A DNA stretch of 59,528 nt from the NCBI GenBank assembly GCA_038065295.1, contig JBBTRG010000007.1:1-59528 (forward strand). Reading direction: 5' to 3'. The translations under genes were made by a program, and so were the position numbers. This DNA is from Patescibacteria group bacterium. Its GTDB lineage: Bacteria > Patescibacteriota > Minisyncoccia > JACROR01. Positions 8,972-17,626 of the stretch are shown here, one piece after another. Position 1 is the first letter of the stretch; each line of letters begins with the position of its first letter. Under the pieces are notes generated by a model. The model saw only the letters and a program-made list of their open reading frames with translations, was not told the DNA's origin and made no database searches.

Positions 8972-9466
8972 TTAAGATTGGGCCACAAAGTCAGCCCTCT
9001 TTCCGTTACGCAAAATATTATCAACCAGCTCCAATTCATGCCAGATGCCGTCTATCAAGTCATAATTTCGCGCCTCCGCCAATGTAACCCACGCGTGTTC
9101 GGTCAAATCCTTGCACAACTTCACCTCTCCACTTTTGTAATCTCCCCAGTAAGAAAGAGTTACTACAGGATATCCGTCCGGCCGCATAAAAATCAAATCA
9201 CAAAGATAATGAGGATTGGCTATTTCCAAATTAACCTCTTCTTTAATTTCTTTTCTCAAAACCCACTCCACGATATTATACCAGGCATCTTTCGTGGTTT
9301 TAGGCACGTCTTTATACTCGTGAGTAACTAATTTTCCTCCGGGCACGGTCCATTTATCGGGATAGGCCTTTTCATGCGGCGCCCTTTTGGCAATCAAAAA
9401 CTTGCCATCTTTTACGATTATGCCGGTTACTACCACAAAATGCGAACGAGGATCAACTTGTTCCAT
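8972..9466 (-). CDS. NUDIX hydrolase
   Basis: Nudix box GGKL...LRKEIKEEVNLE. Start taken at MEQVDPRSHF, just after the ndk stop; the longer track ORF overlaps ndk. Confidence 0.8.
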   Translation of the reverse strand: MEQVDPRSHFVVVTGIIVKDGKFLIAKRAPHEKAYPDKWTVPGGKLVTHEYKDVPKTTKDAWYNIVEWVLRKEIKEEVNLEIANPHYLCDLIFMRPDGYPVVTLSYWGDYKSGEVKLCKDLTEHAWVTLAEARNYDLIDGIWHELELVDNILRNGKRADFVAQS

Positions 9467-9477
9467 AAAATTTTTAC

Positions 9478-10083
9478 TTATTCCAAAATGCCGTCCAGAT
9501 CCACATCGTAGAGCACCTTTTCCTGGAATAATTTGTAATTGATCAAATCGCCCTCGGCGAACCAATGTTTTATTTCTTTTTCCGCCTCTTCCACCGATCC
9601 CGAGGCGTGAATCAGGTTTCTGACCGCCCGTCCGTCGGCATCCGACATTTGATAAGAATCCAGCACAAAATCCCCCCTGATGGTGCCGACATCGGAAGTT
9701 AAGGGTTCGGTGCCGCCCACTAACTTTCGCACTATTTTTACGGCGTGAGCGCCTTGCCAGACCATGGCGATGACCGGCCCTTTGATCATATATCGTTTTA
9801 GATTGCTCAAAATCACCTCCGTGATCTTCAGGGGGTCTTCGGAAGGAGGATTTAACCCCTTTTTCCTGTAACTTTCAATGGTTTTTTCGCCGGTAATGCG
9901 GCGCCATTCCGGATCCAGCGTGTAATGTTTTTCTATGTGCTCTTCAGTGGGGACGGTAATTTTTATTCCGACCAGTTTCAATCCTATCCTTTCAAAACGA
10001 CCAATGATTTCACCGACAAGAGAGCGCTGAACTCCGTCCGGCTTGATGATGATCAAAGTTTTTTCTTCTTGAAATTTTGTCAT
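9478..10083 (-). CDS. ndk: nucleoside-diphosphate kinase (long form with insertion)
   Basis: TLIIIKPDGVQRSLVGEIIGRFE N-terminus and catalytic-His region NLIHASGS. At 201 aa it is longer than typical Ndk. Confidence 0.85.
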   Translation of the reverse strand: MTKFQEEKTLIIIKPDGVQRSLVGEIIGRFERIGLKLVGIKITVPTEEHIEKHYTLDPEWRRITGEKTIESYRKKGLNPPSEDPLKITEVILSNLKRYMIKGPVIAMVWQGAHAVKIVRKLVGGTEPLTSDVGTIRGDFVLDSYQMSDADGRAVRNLIHASGSVEEAEKEIKHWFAEGDLINYKLFQEKVLYDVDLDGILE

Positions 10084-10187
10084 AGTATTTTATATTTCCT
10101 AGCGAGTCCGCGCGAAAATTTATTTTCGTGACGGACGAGTGCTAGAAATATATAATATGCCGTATCCTTTCATATATTTATACCCGA

Positions 10188-11063
10188 TTATTTAACTAAA
10201 ATCAAATCACGGCCGTTGCTCTTAAAAATTACCCGGCCATCAATATCGTTTCGTAAAATATCGATCCCCGCCGCCTGCAACCTATTTAAAATTTCCCGAT
10301 GGGGATGCCCGTAGTTGTTGCTTTTTCCGACTTGGATAACGGCGTAACGCGGCCTGACCGCATTCAAAAAATATTCTGAAGAAGAAGTACGCGAACCGTG
10401 ATGCCCCACTTTAAGCACCACGGAGTTAAGTTGATCTCCTCCCGTGGCAAGCTTATATTCCAGCGCCCGCTCCATATCACCGGTAAGCAAAAAAGAAGTG
10501 TCGCCGTAAACCAAGCGCGCGGTCAGCATCACGTCATTTACATTCTTACTCTGCAACAATGCGCCGTCTGCGGGAGACAAAATATCCAAATAAACCCCGT
10601 CCGCCAGATGAAGCCGCATGCCGCCATGCCCTTGCCAATACTTAACGCTATTGTTTTTTATGAGACGCTCCCATTCCGCGTATTCGCCAATGGAATGAGT
10701 AGCTCCAGAATCCATGGCCGCGCCTACTCGGTATCTTTTAAGCGTTTCCACTAATCCGCCCAAATGATCCAAATTGGGATGCGACATTATGGCCAAATCA
10801 AGCGAACGATCATAAAAAGGCATAACCGCGGACAATTCGCGAAGCACCGTTTTATTGGGACCGCCGTCCAAGAGTACCTGATTGCCATTAGGAACATCTA
10901 TGAAAATGGCGTCGCCTTGCCCCACATTTAAAAAAGAAACGGTCAGAATCCCGCCGCGGTCTTCCGCCCAAACCGCGCTCCACACCAAAAGAGCCGCCGC
11001 AAGCAGCAGCCCCAAAAAATACCATTGAAAGTTTTGCTTTAATACACCCATTTTTAATGACAT
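10188..11063 (-). CDS. ComEC-type metallo-beta-lactamase domain protein (stand-alone)
   Basis: N-terminal TM then LNVGQGDAIFI...HPNLDHLGG...GHHGS motifs, as in the C-terminal MBL domain of ComEC/Rec2. Confidence 0.85.
   Translation of the reverse strand: MSLKMGVLKQNFQWYFLGLLLAAALLVWSAVWAEDRGGILTVSFLNVGQGDAIFIDVPNGNQVLLDGGPNKTVLRELSAVMPFYDRSLDLAIMSHPNLDHLGGLVETLKRYRVGAAMDSGATHSIGEYAEWERLIKNNSVKYWQGHGGMRLHLADGVYLDILSPADGALLQSKNVNDVMLTARLVYGDTSFLLTGDMERALEYKLATGGDQLNSVVLKVGHHGSRTSSSEYFLNAVRPRYAVIQVGKSNNYGHPHREILNRLQAAGIDILRNDIDGRVIFKSNGRDLILVK
10903..11000. repeat. 98-bp perfect direct repeat, copy 1 (inside the ComEC-MBL gene 5' region)
   Basis: Base-by-base identical to 13210-13307. Flanking bases differ on both sides. 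Confidence 0.95.
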
Positions 11064-12700
11064 TCTGGTTTATTATGTTTTTTCAAAATATATATTTTTT
11101 TGGTCTTATAGGAATCACTGCCTTCCATAATTTTAATAGTTTCATCTGAAGGCGTATAAAATAAAAAGCCGACGCCTTGTTTTTTATATTCATATTCTTT
11201 TTTAAAAAAATCGTATTCATTTTCAAAAAAAGTTATTAAAGCACTGTTGTTAAATACTTCTCCTTCAAATTTCCAGTCGTATTCAAAATTAGAAAGCAAT
11301 TTATTTTTCCAAGAAGATTTGATTTTATTTCCGTCAATCTCAAACTGGTAAGTAATGTTTTTGTCCGATTTCCAATTTCCTGATATGGATTTTATATCGT
11401 CTTTTTCGTTAAACTTTGCTTCGGTAAAACCTAAAATAAACTTCCTCATTTCTAACGCTGTTTTTTCACATCTCTGTTCGGTTTCTTCTTCTTTTTCTTT
11501 CCTTTTGGGAAGGTCAGAAATAGCAGCCCCCACATTTGGATGTGGTTCATTTTGAATTTTTGCTTTGTTTAATTTCTCCATCGCCTCGTTTGCAAATCCG
11601 GCGTCCATTAAACGATATGCAAGATTTGCACTTGCCAGTGTTTCATTAAGTTTTTCTGCTTCCTTATAACTGGATATGGATTTTATTGGCATACTTAAAG
11701 ATTCGTATTGTACGCCGAGATTGTTTTGAACATTTTCGTTATTAGGATTAATTTGTCTAGCGTTCTTATAATGCAATAATGATAATTCTTCGTATTTGCT
11801 TTGAGAATAAGAATACCCCGCCTTAAATAACAAATCGCTGTCATTTGGTTTAAGTTCTAATGCTTTATCAATCACGAATGCTCTATTTTCATAATCTTTT
11901 TCTTTTTCGTATATGTCTGCCAACTCCACATATATTTTTACCCGACTTTCATTGTCTTTAACCCTAGAAAGACCCTTTATTAAAACTTCAATGGATTTGT
12001 CTTTCTCATTATTGCGATATAAAGAAGAAGCATAGTGAGTTGAAGCTAATGATATGTCTTCATCGGAGTCAGAGGTTTCAAGAGCTTTCGTAAAAAACAG
12101 GTTGGCATTTTCAAAATCATCAGAACTTGCATAACAAAATCCTAAAGCAATATTTGCTTCATAAGTAGTATCTTTTCCGTTTAAGTATTTTTTAAGCTCT
12201 GGTATCGCGAAGGTGTCTCCCAAAGTATGGGATAATTTCAAATACAATATTTCGTTTTTCTTTTTAGACAGCTCGTCATTATCAAGTTCTAAAACTTTCT
12301 TATATGCTTTTTCTGCTCGTTCCTTGTCTTTATCAAGAAAAGCAAACATCATTTCGTACCGCCATTCCTCCAATGTTTGAGGTATAAAGGGTTCTTCTTT
12401 TTTCTCGGTTGCTTTTTTCTCTTCTTCGTATTTTTTTTCAGATACTTGTTCTTCTTTTTTAACTTCTTCTTTTTCATCCGTCCCCATATCAATCGTGTTT
12501 TTACCAAGTCCAACTCGTCTTATTTTGGGAATTAACTCGCCAATTTGTTTTCCGAACTTAACTAAAAATATGATAAAGCAAATCAAAAAAATCAATGAAT
12601 ACCAAAAAGCATCTGTGGTTATTAAACTTTTAAAAATCTCGCTTTGCCATAGTGTTGTCGTTTGATTCATAGGAGAAGTTGTTGTTATTACCTGTTCCAT
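11054..12700 (-). CDS. membrane-anchored TPR-repeat protein
   Basis: 548 aa with one N-terminal TM (FWYSLIFLICFIIFLVKF), a K/E-rich linker, multiple TPR-like repeats (e.g. AGYSYSQSKYEELSLLHYKNARQINPNN) and a beta-rich C-terminal domain. AT-rich codon usage. Confidence 0.75.
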   Translation of the reverse strand: MEQVITTTSPMNQTTTLWQSEIFKSLITTDAFWYSLIFLICFIIFLVKFGKQIGELIPKIRRVGLGKNTIDMGTDEKEEVKKEEQVSEKKYEEEKKATEKKEEPFIPQTLEEWRYEMMFAFLDKDKERAEKAYKKVLELDNDELSKKKNEILYLKLSHTLGDTFAIPELKKYLNGKDTTYEANIALGFCYASSDDFENANLFFTKALETSDSDEDISLASTHYASSLYRNNEKDKSIEVLIKGLSRVKDNESRVKIYVELADIYEKEKDYENRAFVIDKALELKPNDSDLLFKAGYSYSQSKYEELSLLHYKNARQINPNNENVQNNLGVQYESLSMPIKSISSYKEAEKLNETLASANLAYRLMDAGFANEAMEKLNKAKIQNEPHPNVGAAISDLPKRKEKEEETEQRCEKTALEMRKFILGFTEAKFNEKDDIKSISGNWKSDKNITYQFEIDGNKIKSSWKNKLLSNFEYDWKFEGEVFNNSALITFFENEYDFFKKEYEYKKQGVGFLFYTPSDETIKIMEGSDSYKTKKIYILKKHNKPECH

Positions 12701-12807
12701 TTTTTTATTACATTATCATAAAAAGACATATATTTCTATATCTCAAATATAAAAATTTCATCTTCAGGTGTGAGTGGTCTTATGAGAACATTTTTCGTCC
12801 GGTTTTT

Positions 12808-13026
12808 TTATTCCGAAAGTTTATTGTTTTCAAACTTTTTAATGAATCTTTTGATGTTTTCTTCCTTTAAAAAGTATCGTTTCCCAGACCTACTTCCGAT
12901 GATAATAGGTTTAAAAATATCAACATAATCCTTTGAAACATACCTTATTATCGTTTTATGGGTATCCACCCAGTATATTTTTTTACTTCTCCAAAGCTGA
13001 TGGATAGAGAGTGGTTTTTTGTTCAT
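12808..13026 (-). CDS. small excisionase/MerR-like HTH DNA-binding protein
   Basis: 72 aa. THKTIIRYVSKDYVDIFKPIIIGSRSGKRYFLKEENIKRFI resembles the HTH_17/Xis pattern (helix-turn-helix, then G..KRYF..EDI..F). Confidence 0.45.
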   Translation of the reverse strand: MNKKPLSIHQLWRSKKIYWVDTHKTIIRYVSKDYVDIFKPIIIGSRSGKRYFLKEENIKRFIKKFENNKLSE

Positions 13027-13154
13027 ATATGGTTTATATCAGATTTGATAAAAAAGTTAAATCTAGGGGGTTCTAGAAGGTTCTGGCAGTGTTTCTCTAT
13101 GTATCCTATAAAGGTATTGTTTGGTTTTTTATAGTATTTCCCGCCTTCTTTTTG

Positions 13155-13361
13155 TTAAATCAGAGAACTTAACTTTGAATATGAATGGGTATATAGCATC
13201 CACACCGTTAAAATGGCGTCGCCTTGCCCCACATTTAAAAAAGAAACGGTCAGAATCCCGCCGCGGTCTTCCGCCCAAACCGCGCTCCACACCAAAAGAG
13301 CCGCCGCCGCCAAAACCGCCAAAAAATAATATTTAATATAGCTTTTTACGGACACGATCAT
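13155..13361 (-). pseudogene. truncated duplicate of the 5' end of the ComEC-MBL gene
   Basis: Encodes MIVSVKSYIKYYFLAVLAAAALLVWSAVWAEDRGGILTVSFLNVGQGDAI, then runs into island sequence and stops. The identical peptide segment occurs in ORF 10188..11063. Confidence 0.8.
13210..13307. repeat. 98-bp perfect direct repeat, copy 2
   Basis: Identical to 10903-11000. Confidence 0.95.
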
Positions 13362-13435
13362 AAACTAAAATCCAAATCATTATAATGCGCCTGTTTTTGG
13401 ATTATAATATAAACGGTTAATAACTAAAACAAAAT

Positions 13436-13909
13436 ATGGAAGATAAAAATAAATTCATGGAAGAAGCTATACGCCTATCCATAAATAATGTAGCGTCAGG
13501 CAAGGGCGGTCCCTTCGGAGCAGTCGTGGTCAAAAGCGGAAAAATCATAGGAAAAGGGGTCAACAGCGTAACATCGACCAACGACCCCACGGCACACGCC
13601 GAGGTAGTCGCCATCCGCGACGCTTGCCGAACTCTCGGCAGTTTCCAACTGGACGGATGCGAACTTTTCACCAGTTGCGAGCCGTGCCCCATGTGCGTGG
13701 GAGCGATTTACTGGGCGCGGCCGGAAAAAGTTTATTACGGCAACACTGCCGAGGATGCTGCGGCCATCGGCTTTGACGACCAATTTATTTGCGAAGAATT
13801 AAACAAGGAAAAAACCGCGCGCCTTATTCCCATGATCCAGATGATGCGGGAAGAATCCCAAGAGGCATTTCGCGCCTGGAAAGCAAAAACCGATAAAATA
13901 GAATATTAA
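13436..13909 (+). CDS. guaD: guanine deaminase (CDA-fold, GuaD-like)
   Basis: GGPFGAVVVK, HAEVVAIR and CEPCPMCVGAIYWAR zinc motifs. Full-length resemblance to the B. subtilis GuaD architecture (C-terminal ...AFRAWKAKTDKIEY). Confidence 0.8.
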   Translation: MEDKNKFMEEAIRLSINNVASGKGGPFGAVVVKSGKIIGKGVNSVTSTNDPTAHAEVVAIRDACRTLGSFQLDGCELFTSCEPCPMCVGAIYWARPEKVYYGNTAEDAAAIGFDDQFICEELNKEKTARLIPMIQMMREESQEAFRAWKAKTDKIEY

Positions 13910-15414
13910 TCTCCGGCCAATGCGGCCAAAAATTTGTTTTTCCAGTTGCGCAACTGCGGCATAAACACAAAAACCGCCAAACTGGCATAAGCCGCGACAA
14001 GCCACCATGCGGAAAAATCGGAAATCGTAAAACCGGCTCCGGGCAAAGCGGAAAAAAAGTGAACCACGCCCAACTCATAATTTAAAAGCAGCCACGCCAT
14101 CCACGCGAAGGGCAAACTTAAAACATAGCTAAAAATTCCGGCCGCCCACGCCATAAAACCGAAAAACATGGTCGCGGGAACAAACATCAAAACCAAAATA
14201 TTAACCGGCAAAGCAAACGGCGAAACATTGCCGGTCAAATGCAAAATGAGCGGCAAAACGGCAAGCTGCGCGGATAAAGTAGCCGAAACATTGTCGCGAA
14301 ACCCCCACTTCTCCGGCAAAAATCCGACCAAGCCCTTGAGACGCGGCGCCACGAATATCAGACCCAAAGTGGCCAAAAACGACAACTGAAAAGACGGATC
14401 AAACCGCAAAATTTTGGGGTTTTGCAACACCATAAAAAATCCCGCGAATAAAAGCGCCGCGGTAACCTCATAAACTCTGCCCGTGGAGCGGGCGATGAGC
14501 ACCAAAATAGCCATAATGGACGCGCGGACGATGGTCGCCGAAGCTCCGGTCATAATCGCGAAAAAAATTATCCCAAAAATACTGGCTCCGATCCCCACAC
14601 CGAACGGCAAAGGCAAAAATTTCATCATGCGGCCTATATTTTCCGCGATAATCGTGATGTTATAACCGGATAAAACCACCAAGTGAATGATACCGGATTT
14701 TTTAAATTCTTCCAGCACATCCCCAGGCATGCTTTTCTTGGCGCCAATGGTAAGACCCGCCAGGAAACTTGCGTGCGGCTCCGGCAAGGCGCGGGACAAA
14801 CTATCCGTAAAATTTTTCTTAAGCGCAAAAAGTTTTTCTTTAACCCAAAACCCGCCATCGCCCAAGCGCTCAACGCGCGGAGAAAACATTTCTAAAAATA
14901 TATCATCTTTCGCCAGATAATTTTCCCAGTCAAAATCCGAAAAATTCTCTGGCTTTTGGAGCGCGCCATGCACTTCCAAAACATCGCCATAGCTGAATTC
15001 CGGATATTTTTTAACATACAAAAGCATTTTTTCTCCCGCAATTTCGCGCCACGCGCTTCCGTCGTAAATGCTCTCCGCCCGAAAAATCAGACGCGTAGTA
15101 TTTTCCCGTTCATCCGGCTCTCCCAAAATCATACCCCGTAAAGAAACTTGCCGCGACGTAAAATCCGCGATCATCGGCGACAAAATACCGGCATCTTTGA
15201 CATCATAACGAATAATCCCCGAACAAAAAGAAAGCGTTAATAGGCCAAAAACTAAAAATATCCGCTTTTGCTCCGCCAAATAAGCGGAAAAGAGCGCTGC
15301 CACGCCAAGTAGCCCCACAAACGCGACAAAACCCAACGACCACGCAAAAAAAGAGCGCAAAAACACGCCCCCTAAAAATCCTCCGATTACCAACACCAAA
15401 ACATTGAACCGCAT
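13906..15414 (-). CDS. comEC: ComEC/Rec2 DNA internalisation channel (DUF4131 + competence domain, no MBL domain)
   Basis: Multi-TM protein with the HLVVLSGYNITII competence-domain motif. Start taken at MRFNVLVLV, immediately after the rnhA stop. Confidence 0.85.
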   Translation of the reverse strand: MRFNVLVLVIGGFLGGVFLRSFFAWSLGFVAFVGLLGVAALFSAYLAEQKRIFLVFGLLTLSFCSGIIRYDVKDAGILSPMIADFTSRQVSLRGMILGEPDERENTTRLIFRAESIYDGSAWREIAGEKMLLYVKKYPEFSYGDVLEVHGALQKPENFSDFDWENYLAKDDIFLEMFSPRVERLGDGGFWVKEKLFALKKNFTDSLSRALPEPHASFLAGLTIGAKKSMPGDVLEEFKKSGIIHLVVLSGYNITIIAENIGRMMKFLPLPFGVGIGASIFGIIFFAIMTGASATIVRASIMAILVLIARSTGRVYEVTAALLFAGFFMVLQNPKILRFDPSFQLSFLATLGLIFVAPRLKGLVGFLPEKWGFRDNVSATLSAQLAVLPLILHLTGNVSPFALPVNILVLMFVPATMFFGFMAWAAGIFSYVLSLPFAWMAWLLLNYELGVVHFFSALPGAGFTISDFSAWWLVAAYASLAVFVFMPQLRNWKNKFLAALAGD

Positions 15415-15421
15415 AATAACG

Positions 15422-15883
15422 CTACCCAAACATTCCTCCGCCGCCGGCTTCGCGATCCAGCGTCTCATTTACCATTCGATCCGCGTCTTTGTTTTTGTCG
15501 CGTGTGATGTGGCGGACAACAACGCCCCCCAGTTCAATTTTCAAATTCCAGACTTTTATGAAAAGCGGCTGCAGCTTTTCATCCTCTATTTTATATCTGC
15601 CGCTTAACTGACGCTCCACCAATTCGCTGTCCGTATGCAAAATTATTTCCGCGGCTTTCGCGCTTTTCTTTCCCAAAAGCTGTTTGGCTTTTTTCAGGGC
15701 GAAAATTATCGCTTCATATTCCGCTTCATTGTTGGTTTTAATCCCCAGATATTCTCCATATTCCTTGATCAGGCGCCCTTCGGCATCACAGAACACCGCG
15801 CCCAGCGCAGCAGGTCCCGGATTACCGCGCGCTCCCCCATCCGTATAAATATTTATTTTGTTTTTTGTATGATCCATCATCAT
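15422..15883 (-). CDS. rnhA: ribonuclease HI
   Basis: IYTDGGARGNPGPAALG, NNEAEYEA, TDSELV and DADRMVN motifs supply the DEDD catalytic residues of type-1 RNase H. Confidence 0.85.
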   Translation of the reverse strand: MMMDHTKNKINIYTDGGARGNPGPAALGAVFCDAEGRLIKEYGEYLGIKTNNEAEYEAIIFALKKAKQLLGKKSAKAAEIILHTDSELVERQLSGRYKIEDEKLQPLFIKVWNLKIELGGVVVRHITRDKNKDADRMVNETLDREAGGGGMFG

Positions 15884-15886
15884 AAA

Positions 15887-17626
15887 TTAATTTATTTTAT
15901 AATCCACCGCGCGAAGCCTTAATTCTTCCGTGCCATTAAAACGGGACATTTCCACATTGGCCAGCAAATCCACCAGCAATCCTTCGCCCTGCTCAAAAAA
16001 TTTCGCGTCTTTGCCGCGCCAAAAAGCAATCGCGTTTAATTCTCCGCCGCTTAAATTATGAAACGACAATTTCAGATGCAATCCGTCTTTGCCGAAAACT
16101 CCCACATGCTTCAAAGCTAGATTTTTTAACCAAAATACTGGCTTGGGATTCTCCATGCCAAATGGCTCAAACCGATCCAGCCCGCCTAACAGTTCGCGTC
16201 CCACATCCGATATGGCCAATTCTGCGTCGGCCAGCATGTCTTCGCCCGCTCCCGGCTGGCGAGGAGCTTTTTTTGCGGCCTCCGCAATTGCTTTCTCAAA
16301 TTGACCGGCTTTATCCGTTGCCAGACTAAATCCGCCCGCGGCATGATGCCCGCCAAAATCCAAAAAAAATCCTTCCTGGACATTCCGCATGATCTCCACC
16401 ACGCTGATTTCCCCGCGACTGCGCGCCGAACCTTTTACAGTTTCGGATTCTTCCCCCTGTCCCCACAAAAAAACCGGACGCGAATACATTTCCAAAACCC
16501 GGTTCGCGGTTATCCCCAAAACTCCGGGATGCCACGACGCATCCCCCATAATGATAACGTCCGGCACGGGAGATCCTTCCGGATACTTTGCGCGAATGTC
16601 CCGCAAAACCAAATCCACAAAATGTGCCTGTTCCGTCTTGGTGGAAACCATCCTGTCCACCAACCAATGCGCTTTCTCGTACGAATCGGTGGTTAACAAT
16701 TCAAAACTGGTGGTGTCGTTACCCATACGGCTGGCGGCGTTTATATAAGGAGCTACAGAGAAAGCCACATCTTCCGCGGTTAAATGTTCACCATCAATCC
16801 GCAACTTTTTAAAAAGCACGGTAAGCCCCACTCGCCTGGTTTTCCGCAAAACCTTCAGTCCGAAATGTACCAGTGCGCGGTTTTCATCCAAAAGCGGCAC
16901 CATATCCGCCACCGTGGCAATCGCCGCAACATCCAACAGCCACTTTTCCCAGCCCTCCGGCAAATCAAAATTATCTTTACGCAATATCGCTTTGACTGTT
17001 TTAAACGCCATACCAGCGCCGCATAAAAATTTAAAAGGATAAGTTTCCGTTTCTTTCTTGGCATCAATAATGGCAAAAGCGTTGGGCCAGCGCGGAGGAA
17101 CAATATGATGGTCAATTATTATAGCATCAATGCCAAGCGAATTCAGGCGCTCAACTTCATCAAAATTAGTAACCCCGCAATCCACCGTGATAACCACCGC
17201 GGGATTTTCTTTGATTATAGCCTCCACGGCAACGGCAGAAAGCCCGTAACCTTCCTTATACCGGTCAGGAATATAAACACGGAAATTCGCGTAGCCTATC
17301 TGCACGAACAAATCAGAAAAAATCGTGGCTCCGCAAACTCCATCCGCATCATAATCACCGAACACCACTATGCGTTCACCGCCTCTTATAGCCTTTATAA
17401 TCCTTGTCGCGGCTTTTTCCATGTCCCGCAACAAAAAGGGATCGTGTAAATCTTTTTCATAATCAGGCGAAAAAAAATTTGCCTTATCCGCCGCACTTTT
17501 TATTCCGCGACTAAAAAGAAGGGAAGAGCTGACGCGATCTTCGCCTGGAAAAATATTAATAGCGTCTTCCGGCAAGGATTCTTTTAACGCCCATTTTTTA
17601 CCAGTAATGATTCCGGCATCCGACAT
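15887..17626 (-). CDS. recJ: single-stranded-DNA-specific exonuclease RecJ
   Basis: DHH-family motifs VVFGDYDADGV, ITVDCG and IIIDHH, plus a DHHA1 GGHHAAGG motif. ATG at 17626 preferred over the track's TTG at 17662. Confidence 0.9.
   Translation of the reverse strand: MSDAGIITGKKWALKESLPEDAINIFPGEDRVSSSLLFSRGIKSAADKANFFSPDYEKDLHDPFLLRDMEKAATRIIKAIRGGERIVVFGDYDADGVCGATIFSDLFVQIGYANFRVYIPDRYKEGYGLSAVAVEAIIKENPAVVITVDCGVTNFDEVERLNSLGIDAIIIDHHIVPPRWPNAFAIIDAKKETETYPFKFLCGAGMAFKTVKAILRKDNFDLPEGWEKWLLDVAAIATVADMVPLLDENRALVHFGLKVLRKTRRVGLTVLFKKLRIDGEHLTAEDVAFSVAPYINAASRMGNDTTSFELLTTDSYEKAHWLVDRMVSTKTEQAHFVDLVLRDIRAKYPEGSPVPDVIIMGDASWHPGVLGITANRVLEMYSRPVFLWGQGEESETVKGSARSRGEISVVEIMRNVQEGFFLDFGGHHAAGGFSLATDKAGQFEKAIAEAAKKAPRQPGAGEDMLADAELAISDVGRELLGGLDRFEPFGMENPKPVFWLKNLALKHVGVFGKDGLHLKLSFHNLSGGELNAIAFWRGKDAKFFEQGEGLLVDLLANVEMSRFNGTEELRLRAVDYKIN

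What the first reader, a model, noticed from the sequence alone, without database searches (positions are those of the whole stretch)
10903..13307. Perfect 98-bp direct repeat brackets a 2.2-kb low-GC insertion and duplicates the 5' end of the ComEC-MBL gene
Positions 10903-11000 and 13210-13307 are identical at all 98 bases I compared, and the flanking bases differ. Each copy encodes LLVWSAVWAEDRGGILTVSFLNVGQGDAI. The left copy belongs to an intact gene (10188-11063). The right copy is a truncated 5' fragment with its own, diverged but homologous N-terminus (SYIKYYFLAVLAAAALLVW versus QNFQWYFLGLLLAAALLVW). The DNA between the copies is markedly AT-rich. It carries a TPR gene whose stop overlaps the start of the intact MBL gene, plus an excisionase-like HTH gene. 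This looks like an integrative element or recombination cassette that targets the 5' end of this gene and brings a replacement 5' end. The analogy is a tRNA-targeting island that restores its target, yet no integrase is present. A 98-bp perfect repeat also equals k-1 for a k=99 de Bruijn assembly, so an assembly artefact joining strain variants must be excluded.
Basis: seen in the sequence. Interest (0 to 1): 0.7.

Follow-up and report, generated by a model that had tools for sequence, protein, structure and literature searches.

The report
Decayed integrative-element scar in split comEC gene
The 98-bp repeat marks where a mobile element that uses a serine recombinase once cut into the DNA-uptake gene comEC of a groundwater Patescibacteria bacterium; only the element's first 2.2 kb survives, and the gene is whole again because it has gained a second copy of its own 5' end.

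Summary
Positions 10903-11000 and 13210-13307 are identical (98/98) and form the only repeat of 30 nt or more in the window. The 2.2 kb between them has 31% GC, against 46% in the flanks.

The low-coordinate edge of the repeat is the crossover site (TTTT, the Phe codon of GQGDAIF) of a family of about 11.9-kb AT-rich, phage-like integrative elements. These elements insert with a large serine recombinase (LSR) into the stand-alone ComEC beta-lactamase-domain (MBL) gene of groundwater Patescibacteria. The same element arm (AACGGTGTGGATGC...) is joined to this codon in five different host backgrounds.

Full-length relatives simply split the gene and carry no replacement 5' end. The window has:
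- attL, a small DNA-binding-like gene and a TPR cargo gene;
- no recombinase, no attR and no P arm;
- an uninterrupted attB inside the intact gene.

It is therefore a non-excisable remnant. The intact gene starts with a foreign but genuine MBL 5' end fused at the TPR stop codon. The orphaned fragment carries the native 5' end. How that second 5' end arrived is inferred, not shown; illegitimate or homologous recombination plus gene conversion is the likeliest route.

An assembly artefact is unlikely. A sister element splits comM.

The parts
13308..13361 (-). Native 5' end (N2; MIVSVKSYIKYYFLAVLAAAA...) of the MBL gene, now orphaned upstream of the element remnant.
   Evidence: It is contiguous with the upstream deaminase gene, as in the closest relative L150. 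The N2+repeat region aligns to L150 over 130 nt at 87%, reaching about 32 nt beyond the repeat into N2, whereas the N1 side does not align.
13210..13307 (-). Repeat copy R2: host coding sequence up to and including the crossover core (TTTT on the minus strand, 13213-13210). This is the B-arm side of attL.
   Evidence: 98/98 identical to 10903-11000. It is followed directly by the conserved element arm, as in five host backgrounds. It is fully spanned by the independent contig L016.
13155..13361 (-). Truncated 68-aa ORF: MBL codons 1-50, then LTVWMLYTHSYSKLSSLI* read from element DNA. A pseudogene fragment.
   Evidence: The same tail, LTVWMLYTHSYSKLSS(P/L)I*, follows GQGD(A/S)I in loci L006-L010 and L016-L020.
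13186..13209 (-). P' arm of attL (AACGGTGTGGATGCTATATACCC).
   Evidence: The arm is identical at the junction in all the related lysogens; the flanking left-end module is 88-90% identical. In full elements its partner CCACCGTT lies at attR, giving attP = CCCCACCGTT-TT-AACGGTGTGG. There is a single copy in the window.
12808..13026 (-). 72-aa small protein (a possible winged-helix DNA binder). It is the first gene of the element, and its role as a recombination directionality factor or regulator is untested.
   Evidence: The family has only 35 clusters and no Pfam domain. Relatives at 80-90% identity sit at or near the left end of LSR elements, beside attL where that junction is on the contig. 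Relatives at 65-71% identity sit in phage replication modules. AlphaFold pLDDT is 87, with only weak winged-helix matches.
11054..12700 (-). 548-aa membrane-anchored TPR protein. It occupies the element's variable cargo slot.
   Evidence: Pfam finds TPR repeats and it matches phrog_31809 at E 3e-33. It is 76% identical at the protein level, and 80.6% at the DNA level, to the TPR gene of the full elements L017-L020 and L140. In the same host background the slot instead holds 233-aa and 163-aa genes. PADLOC gave no hit.
11064..11076 (-). Novel joint: homology to the full-length element stops at the TPR stop-codon position of relatives (about 11074). Host-like sequence just upstream of an MBL start codon begins here.
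   Evidence: The relatives' TPR ends ...YTLQKA*, whereas the window reads on as ...YILKKHNKPECH*. The joint lies within about 7 nt of the right edge of the cargo slot. It is present in the independent contigs L003, L004 and L005.
11001..11063 (-). Foreign 5' end (N1; MSLKMGVLKQNFQWYFLGLLLAAA...) of the intact MBL gene.
   Evidence: About 65% identical to N2 (19/29 in the 29 nt next to the repeat). It is a genuine MBL N-terminus, sharing KQN..YFL with L150, but nucleotide homology of the N1+repeat region to L150 starts only 12 nt inside the repeat.
10903..11000 (-). Repeat copy R1, inside the intact gene.
10880..10906 (-). Uninterrupted attB: ...GGCGACGCCATT-TT-CATAGATGTTCCTAATGGC (codons D-A-I-F-I-D-V-P-N-G). 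There is no P arm here, so this is not an attR.
   Evidence: The B' arm is homologous to the uninterrupted gene of L150. GQGDAIFI, and the TT of the Phe codon, are invariant in 78/78 Patescibacteria MBL genes. The P-arm sequence has 0 matches in the window at up to 3 mismatches.
10188..11063 (-). Intact stand-alone ComEC C-terminal (metallo-beta-lactamase) domain gene, 291 aa.
   Evidence: Pfam Lactamase_B. TIGR00361 positions 441-663 at E 2.7e-35. PDB ComEC chains at E 7e-35.
13906..15468 (-). Context: ComEC N-terminal part (DUF4131 + Competence domains). ComEC is split into two genes in this lineage.
   Evidence: The arrangement is the same in relative L150.
13436..13909 (+). Context: cytidine/deoxycytidylate-type deaminase between the two comEC parts. 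It marks the native upstream flank.
   Evidence: It is syntenic in L150.

Best explanation
The locus is the scar of a large-serine-recombinase (LSR) integrative element.

The element family (shown). In groundwater Patescibacteria there is a family of about 11.9-kb, roughly 34%-GC, phage-like elements. Their gene order is: small DNA-binding-like gene, a variable cargo slot, a type II restriction-modification system, an amidase, an O-like replication initiator, then the LSR. They integrate by an attP x attB exchange at a TT dinucleotide inside the Phe codon of the invariant GQGDAIF motif of the stand-alone ComEC beta-lactamase-domain gene. Integration splits that gene.

The window (shown). Only the left 2.2 kb survives: attL, the small gene and the TPR cargo gene. 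The recombinase, the rest of the element and attR are gone. Directly after the TPR stop codon comes a complete MBL gene with an uninterrupted attB. Its first ~21-28 codons (N1) come from another lineage's MBL gene. The native 5' end (N2) remains as a truncated fragment joined to the element arm.

The repeat (shown). The 98-bp repeat is therefore not an attachment site. It is the host coding sequence just 5' of the crossover, present once in the orphaned fragment and once in the intact gene. It ends exactly at the crossover core.

Origin of the second 5' end (inferred). One illegitimate joint formed between the TPR end and a point about 10-13 nt upstream of an MBL start codon. This could have happened in three ways:
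(a) aberrant excision of a mini-circle that later re-inserted by homologous crossover within the repeat;
(b) homology-facilitated illegitimate recombination of imported DNA;
(c) a same-strain duplication later trimmed by an ordinary homologous import.
In (a) and (b), gene conversion or crossover would account for the perfect identity of the two copies; in (c) the identity is what remains of the original duplication.

Consequences (inferred). The remnant cannot excise site-specifically. The MBL gene is now probably co-transcribed and translationally coupled with the element's TPR gene.
For: Junction and target site
- The repeat edge coincides with the element junction. The identical arm AACGGTGTGGATGCTATATACCC follows ...GQGD(A/S)I-TT in the window and in four other host sequences, five host backgrounds in all.
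- A second LSR lineage (L026) abuts the same codon.
- The full element L140 runs attL, small gene, TPR, MTase, REase ... 564-aa LSR, attR, then the MBL remainder (FIETPSGNQILIDGG...) in frame at the LSR stop.
- The LSR matches phrog_95 integrase at E 7.5e-101 and is Ccr/XisF-like.
- The reconstructed attP has perfect 8-nt inverted arms around TT.
- The attB motif and the TT are invariant in 78/78 genomes.

The window copy is a remnant
- Window homology to L017 runs from 13232 to 11074 (80.6%) and stops at the TPR stop.
- tblastn with all L140 proteins hits only the small gene, the TPR and the MBL in the window.
- The P arm is absent from the window and there is a single P' arm.
- Element GC is 34% against 46-49% for hosts, matching the insert's 31.5%.

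Which 5' end is native
- The closest relative, L150, and the other 79 GTDB loci have empty sites.
- L150's 5' end aligns with the N2 side and not with N1.
- The repeat region differs from L150 at 11 of 98 positions, so 98/98 identity next to a 65%-identical N-terminus needs conversion or recombination.

Assembly support
- Independent contigs and a second long assembly carry the junctions.
Against: - The route by which the second 5' end arrived is not shown. No donor carrying N1 was found.
- No model explains the perfect 98-bp identity without an extra step, either gene conversion or a later homologous import.
- The junction from the repeat into the gene body after N1 is seen only in the two long assemblies, which may derive from overlapping read sets. 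Raw reads were not available.
- The TPR/N1 joint lies within about 7 nt of the cargo-slot boundary. This could mean a more regular, cassette-type recombination than the illegitimate joint proposed.
- The 10-nt overlap of the TPR stop with the MBL start looks tidy for a random joint.
Confidence: 0.78

Rival explanations
1. A self-contained integrative or recombination cassette (small gene + TPR + replacement 5' end) uses the 98-bp identity as its attachment site. It restores its target in the way a tRNA-targeting island does, and its integrase acts in trans or has been lost.
For: Direct repeats flank a low-GC insert. The intact gene's 5' end is foreign and sits on the element side. A 2.3-kb circle carrying N1 + repeat + element arm could in principle insert by homologous (Campbell-type) crossover in the repeat, and this is one of the origin routes I cannot exclude.
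Against: Relatives with the same left end are 11.9 kb long, end in an LSR and attR, and carry no replacement 5' end. attB and attP share only TTTT. The right-hand repeat copy is followed by a normal B' arm and has no P arm. No other contig in the collections shows small gene + cargo followed by an MBL 5' end. The exact TPR protein occurs only in this population.
Confidence: 0.1
2. Assembly artefact. A de Bruijn graph path passes twice through a shared 98-mer (k-1 for k=99), stitching together strain variants or a lysogen and a non-lysogen. The two repeat copies are then not on one molecule in this order.
For: 98 = 99-1. In two other assemblies the insert came out as a separate contig that stops inside the repeat: L003 with a 55-nt overlap and L004 with 30-nt overlaps. 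The repeat is therefore a branching node at k=55 and k=31. The population carries at least one SNP between assemblies, at 13697.
Against: One edge of the repeat is set by the recombinase crossover and the other by N1/N2 divergence, not by k. The TPR-to-N1 joint is not at a repeat and is present in L003, L004 and L005. The junction of N2, the whole repeat and the element arm is in L016, from another well. Two long assemblies that differ in length and by one SNP give the same order. Neither the alternative pairing's products (the N2-hybrid full-length protein, the N1 circle-junction ORF) nor any near-identical cluster member exists among 15 billion proteins. Even the alternative pairing would be a recombination product of the assembled structure.
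Confidence: 0.07
3. Ancestral arrangement with a local duplication. The TPR and small genes are native neighbours of the MBL gene, and only the 5' segment was duplicated.
For: None beyond the repeat itself.
Against: The closest relative has deaminase-MBL with nothing in between, and none of the 80 GTDB loci has these genes. The insert's GC is 15 points lower than the flanks. The same DNA occurs at the same codon in unrelated host backgrounds and continues into an LSR element.
Confidence: 0.02

Closest known systems
Phi1207.3 / Phi10394.4 / Tn1207.1 of Streptococcus pyogenes and S. pneumoniae (PMC4260502)
   Same: Mobile elements encoding serine-family recombinases that integrate at a specific dinucleotide inside the comEC (celB) coding sequence and split it.
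   Different: They are 52-59-kb prophages of Firmicutes with three resolvase-type genes and a GA target. Here the elements are about 12 kb, sit in Patescibacteria, carry a single 564-aa LSR and use a TT target in the GQGDAIF motif of a stand-alone MBL-domain gene. The window holds only a decayed left end. Whether the target positions within comEC correspond was not tested.
Listeria A118/phi10403S in comK, and the Bacillus SPbeta (spsM), skin (sigK) and gin (gerE) gene-intervening elements (PMC7397523, PMC5595907)
   Same: LSR-mediated insertion into a coding sequence. Excision can rebuild the gene. attP lies next to the recombinase gene.
   Different: In those systems the gene is restored by precise excision. 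In the window, excision is impossible because there is no attR and no LSR, and the gene is whole because it has a second 5' end.
Mobile-element insertions in competence genes as intragenomic conflict / chromosomal curing (comYC, comK, comFA, comM; PMC4774983, PMC12637031)
   Same: Elements that target conserved sites in DNA-uptake genes across species. Here sister elements split the comEC MBL-domain gene (L140) and comM (L230).
   Different: This has not, as far as my searches show, been described for Patescibacteria. No functional data exist here.
Integrative islands that carry a copy of their target's end
   Same: Direct repeats flank the insert, and the functional gene copy is completed by sequence on the element side.
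   Different: In those islands the repeat is the att core used by a tyrosine integrase, and it is a constant feature of the element. Here the family's att core is 4 nt, full elements carry no gene end, and the repeat is a secondary duplication.
Specialised-transduction-type aberrant excision (lambda gal/bio; from general knowledge) and homology-facilitated illegitimate recombination in transformable bacteria (from general knowledge)
   Same: They produce one illegitimate joint between element DNA and host DNA next to an att junction, followed by homologous insertion. This is the topology seen here.
   Different: This is purely an inferred origin. No intermediate was observed.

Membership tests
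Integrated large-serine-recombinase element (functional copy) | Encodes a large serine recombinase (Resolvase + Recombinase domains). | tested here: not met
   tblastn of the L140 LSR and all other L140 proteins against the window hits only the small gene, the TPR and the MBL. Genes within +/-10 kb are housekeeping. Full relatives do encode it.
Integrated large-serine-recombinase element (functional copy) | attL junction: host B arm + central dinucleotide + element P' arm, the same in independent hosts. | tested here: met
   Window 13186-13213. The P' arm is identical after ...GQGD(A/S)I-TT in the window and four other host sequences.
Integrated large-serine-recombinase element (functional copy) | attR junction: element P arm + dinucleotide + host B' arm. 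| tested here: not met
   The P arm GTATTGTGTCCCCACCGTTTT has 0 matches in the window at up to 3 mismatches. The second repeat copy is followed by B' and preceded by a B arm, so it is an intact attB.
Integrated large-serine-recombinase element (functional copy) | attP with imperfect inverted-repeat arms around a 2-nt crossover; minimal attB/attP identity. | tested here: met
   This holds for the family, not for the window copy. Reconstructed from L140 attL and attR: CCCCACCGTT-TT-AACGGTGTGG, with a shared core of TTTT only.
Integrated large-serine-recombinase element (functional copy) | Recombinase-catalysed integration and excision. | not testable with these tools
   Needs an in vitro or in vivo attP x attB assay.
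Island with a target-restoring att repeat (tRNA-island type) | The flanking direct repeat is the att core and is a constant part of the element in every host. | tested here: not met
   In L140 the sequences flanking the element share only TTTT, and no MBL 5' end lies at the right end. No repeat of 20 nt or more was found in L006-L010.
Island with a target-restoring att repeat (tRNA-island type) | Integrase gene adjacent to one att site. | tested here: not met
Excisionase / MerR-type HTH (Pfam HTH_17) for the 72-aa protein | Significant sequence or fold match to the family. | tested here: inconclusive
   Pfam: 0 hits for the window protein, and 1 of 34 members at E 0.11. The PDB profile search gave nothing relevant. 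The AlphaFold model (pLDDT 87, strand-helix-helix-hairpin-helix) has PadR/MecI winged helices as best Foldseek hits, at E 0.15.
ComEC/Rec2 C-terminal metallo-beta-lactamase domain | Aligns to the C-terminal domain of ComEC models and structures; partner Competence-domain gene nearby. | tested here: met
   TIGR00361 positions 441-663/663 at E 2.7e-35. This is below the full-length cut-off, as expected for a lone domain. PDB ComEC at E 7e-35. The DUF4131 + Competence gene lies at 13906-15468.
De Bruijn assembly artefact | At least one junction lacks support outside the one assembly. | tested here: inconclusive
   Three of the four junction contexts are present in independent short contigs, and the whole order is present in a second long assembly. 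The N1-repeat-gene-body context is seen only in the two long assemblies. Reads were not available.

The most novel reading that the evidence does not exclude
Groundwater Patescibacteria host a previously undescribed guild of small LSR elements. Their integrases are tuned to invariant motifs of DNA-uptake genes: the comEC MBL domain at GQGDAIF, and comM at ...NGVLFLDEFPEF. These organisms are thought to depend on DNA uptake, so this would be the conflict between mobile elements and transformation playing out in them. On this reading, the window records the host side of that conflict. A lysogen, or a recipient of lysogen DNA, regained an intact comEC MBL gene by recombination that supplied a new 5' end. 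This stranded the element's left end and placed comEC-MBL expression under element-derived control.
Probability: 0.35. Interest if true: 0.7.

Novelty: new member of a known kind. Interest (0 to 1): 0.5.

Why it matters
The window feature on its own is an ordinary kind of object: a decayed integrative-element scar with a duplicated gene end.

What it led to is more useful.
- A defined attB/attP pair and a set of LSRs that target the most conserved motif of the ComEC nuclease domain across several Patescibacteria lineages.
- A sister element in comM.

Natural competence through ComEC has been shown experimentally in cultivated Saccharibacteria (PMC10633639). It is thought to supply nucleotides to these reduced genomes. 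Elements that switch the comEC MBL domain or comM off, and hosts that repair them, would make the 'chromosomal curing' conflict testable in this phylum.

The LSR/att pairs could also serve as integration tools for Patescibacteria genetics.

For annotation, the 68-aa ORF (13155-13361) should be flagged as a pseudogene fragment and the 2.2-kb insert as element-derived.

Tried and rejected
Searches that did not deliver:
- The metagenome scan with the N-terminus of the L017 LSR did not retrieve the L017 contig. It returned mostly unrelated LSRs, and only L026 was informative.
- Two protein searches with LSR fragments did not return the family's own LSRs. One gave nothing. The other gave hits at 56% identity or less, mostly 350-370-aa recombinases.
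The right end of the full element was eventually reached by first obtaining protein ids through the exact-sequence cluster look-up.
- IMG/VR contains no close relative of the 72-aa protein, and only distant LSRs.
- INPHARED phages have no TPR homologue.
- PADLOC has no hit for the TPR, the 72-aa protein, or the 233-aa and 163-aa cargo proteins.
- Rfam finds nothing in 9000-16000.
- The promoter scan was at chance level. The terminator-like hits include the GC-rich repeat itself, and I did not interpret them.
- The exact look-up of the window's deaminase, meant to find empty-site contigs of the same strain, found nothing.

Ideas rejected:
- The repeat as a target-site duplication. Similarity continues beyond it, and the LSR makes no duplication.
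- An in-situ duplication of N2 followed by divergence. That would require 0% divergence over 98 nt next to 35% over 63 nt.
- N1 created by chance from element DNA. It shares KQN..YFL and upstream nucleotides with L150.

Full report
**1. The observation.**
Positions 10903-11000 and 13210-13307 are identical at all 98 bases. Below the low-coordinate edge the two contexts are unrelated. Above the high-coordinate edge similarity falls to 19/29, which is why the repeat finder reports 127 nt at 92%. The pair is the only direct or inverted repeat of 30 nt or more in the window.

The DNA between the copies (11001-13209) has 31.5% GC, against 46% on either side.

All genes of interest are on the minus strand:
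- a ComEC N-terminal gene with DUF4131 + Competence domains (13906-15468);
- a deaminase on the plus strand (13436-13909);
- a 68-aa truncated MBL 5' fragment (13155-13361);
- a 72-aa ORF (12808-13026);
- a 548-aa TM-TPR protein (11054-12700);
- an intact 291-aa MBL gene (10188-11063), whose start overlaps the TPR stop by 10 nt.

The MBL protein is the C-terminal nuclease-type domain of ComEC/Rec2. It matches TIGR00361 positions 441-663 at E 2.7e-35 and solved ComEC structures at E 7e-35. ComEC is therefore split into two genes in this lineage.

**2. Provenance and independent assemblies.**
The window is a Patescibacteria MAG contig from the Hainich groundwater wells. A second assembly (GCA_964364825.1, 61,631-bp contig) has the same structure and differs by one base, at 13697.

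Short contigs from other samples carry parts of the locus at 100% identity:
- L016 (1,201 nt, well H43) runs from the deaminase through the native 5' end and the whole right-hand repeat copy into the element and the TPR start.
- L003, L004 and L005 carry the insert with the joint between the TPR end and N1.
- L003 and L004 stop 55/6 nt and 30/30 nt inside the repeat, as expected for a branching node at k=55 and k=31.

Neither the protein expected from an empty site (N2 + gene body) nor the one expected from a circle junction exists among about 15 billion proteins. The 90% cluster of the MBL protein has a single member.

**3. What the insert is.**
The 72-aa protein belongs to a small family of 35 clusters with no Pfam domain. 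A member in the same 90%-identity cluster (87% identical by tblastn) lies on at least 16 contigs from other aquifers, including Rifle and several JGI and ENA groundwater sets.

Those contigs share about 480 nt with the window (13243 to 12762, 88-90% identity). In each one, this block is joined to the same point of a different host's MBL gene...(D/N)V(G/E)QGD(A/S)I | LTVWMLYTHSYSKLSS(P/L)I*. Five different host 5' ends are involved.

Longer contigs show that this block is the left end of an element of about 11.9 kb at 34% GC. Its genes, in order, are:
- the small gene;
- a cargo slot (a TPR gene in L017-L020 and L140);
- a D12 methyltransferase and an EcoRI-like endonuclease;
- an Amidase_3 endolysin-like protein;
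- an O-like replication initiator;
- several small ORFs;
- a 564-aa large serine recombinase, matching phrog_95 integrase at E 7.5e-101 and Ccr/XisF-like.

No capsid or terminase gene was recognised among the ten proteins scanned. I therefore call it a phage-like integrative element rather than a prophage.

**4. The attachment sites.**
In L140 the recombinase ORF ends in ...CCCCACCGTTTTCATTGA. The host MBL reading frame resumes there (FIETPSGNQILIDGGPDK...).

- attL = ...GACGCGATT-TT-AACGGTGTGGATGC...
- attR = ...GTGTCCCCACCGTT-TT-CATTGAAACTCC...
- attP (reconstructed) = CCCCACCGTT-TT-AACGGTGTGG, with perfect 8-nt inverted arms around TT.
- attB (reconstructed) = GAYGCNATT-TT-CAT..., where the TT is the start of the Phe codon of GQGDAIF.

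attB and attP share only TTTT. This is the anatomy of a serine-integrase system. It is not the anatomy of an island with a long att identity.

The motif GQGDAIFI and that TT are invariant in 78 of 78 Patescibacteria MBL genes examined, which explains the multi-host range.

A second LSR lineage, about 51% identical (L026), abuts the same codon with a related arm (AACGGTGAGGAT). There the recombinase gene lies on the other side of the site.

**5. What the window has and lacks.**
Homology to the full element runs from 13232 to 11074 (80.6%). It stops at the position of the relatives' TPR stop codon, and the window's TPR reads on for a few codons. No other element protein has a match in the window. 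The P arm is absent and the P' arm occurs once, at 13188-13211.

The second repeat copy is followed by ...CATAGATGTTCCTAATGGC. This is a normal B' arm, homologous to the uninterrupted gene of the closest relative.

The window therefore contains an attL followed 2.3 kb later by an intact attB. It has no attR and no recombinase. The unit cannot excise by site-specific recombination.

The low-coordinate edge of the 98-bp repeat (AAAA on the plus strand at 10903 and 13210) is exactly the crossover core. The repeat is host sequence 5' of the crossover, present twice.

**6. Which 5' end is native.**
A scan of GTDB species representatives with the MBL protein returned 80 loci. None contains the small gene, the TPR or an LSR.

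The closest relative is L150, a Ca. Niyogibacteria genome that is about 80% identical and syntenic. It has deaminase, MBL 5' end, repeat-equivalent and gene body with nothing in between. Its 5' end aligns with the N2 side over 130 nt at 87%. It aligns with the N1 side only from 12 nt inside the repeat. N2 is thus the locus's native 5' end.

N1 is a genuine MBL N-terminus. It shares KQN..YFL, and about 12 nt upstream of the start codon, with L150. It comes from a more distant allele.

The repeat region differs from L150 at 11 of 98 sites. Perfect identity next to a 65%-identical N-terminus therefore cannot be simple descent. It requires a recombination junction at 11000/13307 or gene conversion between the copies.

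**7. How the arrangement arose (inferred).**
Any route needs one illegitimate joint: the TPR end joined to about 10-13 nt upstream of an MBL start codon. Three routes give the observed topology.
(a) Aberrant excision from an N1-type lysogen produces a circle of about 2.3 kb (N1, repeat, element arm, small gene, TPR). The circle then inserts by homologous crossover in the repeat region of this host.
(b) A non-lysogen takes up lysogen DNA, or a lysogen takes up non-lysogen DNA. One end is anchored by homology and the other joined illegitimately.
(c) A same-strain event creates a longer perfect duplication, later shortened by an ordinary homologous import that brought in N2 and ended at 13307/13308.

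I cannot discriminate between these. Routes (a) and (b) also need gene conversion to make the two copies identical.

The joint lies within about 7 nt of the right boundary of the element's swappable cargo slot. This may be coincidence, or it may hint at a preferred recombination point.

**8. The artefact question.**
A k-1 coincidence cannot create this structure, for these reasons:
- The TPR-N1 joint is not at a repeat and is independently assembled three times.
- The junction of N2, the repeat and the element arm is independently assembled and has the same form as attL in other hosts.
- The repeat's two edges are set by the crossover site and by allele divergence.

What remains untested is the N1-repeat-gene-body context outside the two long assemblies, and whether the two copies are truly identical at read level.

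**9. The small protein and the TPR protein.**
The 'excisionase-like HTH' label is not established. There is no significant sequence match. A confident model (pLDDT 87; strand, two helices, hairpin, helix) has only weak winged-helix matches.

Where the attL junction is on the contig, the gene sits next to attL. More distant homologues sit in phage replication modules. Both fit a DNA-binding regulator or a directionality factor, but neither role was tested.

The TPR protein matches a phage protein family of unknown function (phrog_31809) and no known defence model.

**10. Comparison with known systems, and novelty.**
The following are all established:
- LSR elements that split genes (skin, SPbeta, gin; A118 and phi10403S in comK);
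- serine-recombinase prophages inside comEC of streptococci (PMC4260502);
- the wider pattern of mobile elements disrupting competence genes (PMC4774983, PMC12637031).

The window is a decayed member of a new family of that kind, in a phylum and at a target site for which my literature searches found no description. It fails the membership test for a functional integrated element, because there is no LSR and no attR. It also fails the test for a target-restoring island.

**11. Verdict.**
The element and the target are correctly identified, but the mechanism is wrong: the repeat is not the att site. Interest is moderate (0.5). It comes mainly from the family context (comEC MBL-domain and comM targeting in Patescibacteria), not from the scar itself.

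Noticed in passing
L230 (whole contig of L021; ENA ERZ27254763 k141_1449977): 1-~450 and 11773-11826: A sister element has a small protein 90% identical to the window's but a different 554-aa LSR, and it is inserted in comM/yifB. Joining its left and right flanks restores a continuous YifB/ComM segment (TIGR00368 positions 155-321, E 2e-62). Related elements thus target two different competence-associated genes.
   Followed up: partly
L007 997-2392 versus L017 3090-4780; window 11074-12762: There is a swappable cargo slot between the small gene (+47 nt) and the D12 methyltransferase (-8 nt). In the same host background (flanks 97% identical) it holds either a TPR gene or 233-aa + 163-aa + 33-aa genes. 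In L021 the small gene is followed instead by a helicase, and in L024 by an HNH gene. The window's TPR/N1 joint falls within about 7 nt of the slot's right edge.
   Followed up: partly
L140 12040-12069; window 13129-13209 (-): The LSR ORF crosses attR, and its stop codon lies in host DNA. In the excised (attP) form it would read on into the P' arm and gain a 26-aa tail (NGVDAIYPFIFKVKFSDLTKRRREIL). The recombinase's C-terminus would therefore differ between integrated and free states. That frame is still open in the window remnant.
   Followed up: no
L026 (JGI Ga0172379_10065395) 1700-1940: A second LSR lineage, about 51% identical, abuts the same GQGDAI codon. Its 3' end converges on the host 5' fragment, and TA rather than TT precedes a related arm (AACGGTGAGGAT). 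This suggests independent or diverged targeting of the same site with the opposite gene layout.
   Followed up: partly
L105-L109 (for example ENA ERZ27247363 k141_1382131, 137.7 kb): Homologues of the 72-aa protein at 65-71% identity sit directly after an SNF2 helicase in large phage-like replication modules (primase/DnaB, PD-(D/E)XK, dUTPase, UDG, RNA and DNA ligases). One contig is binned as 'Methanogenium sp.'.
   Followed up: no
window 13697: This is the only difference (C versus A) between the window and the 61.6-kb NCBI contig over the 20.9 kb compared. It lies in the deaminase gene. The window's exact deaminase protein is not on record in the gene-position index.
   Followed up: no
window 10188-11063, 13436-13909 and 13906-15468; L150: ComEC is split in this lineage. 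The DUF4131 + Competence gene and a separate membrane-anchored MBL-domain gene are separated by an oppositely oriented deaminase gene whose 3' end overlaps the comEC stop by 4 nt. The layout is conserved in the closest relative.
   Followed up: partly
L003 end (window 10995): The contig ends only 6 nt into the repeat, not at the expected 55-mer branch point. This could be a low-coverage dead end (coverage 5) or a hint of a strain SNP at about 10994 in the copy that follows N1.
   Followed up: no
L230 ~440-575: Two similar motifs (...CTTGACGGTAGTTCCACAAATG... and ...CCTGACAGTTGTTCCACAATG...) lie about 100 nt apart, just inside the left end of the comM-targeting element. They may be recombinase-binding repeats or a relic of a second att arm.
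   Followed up: no
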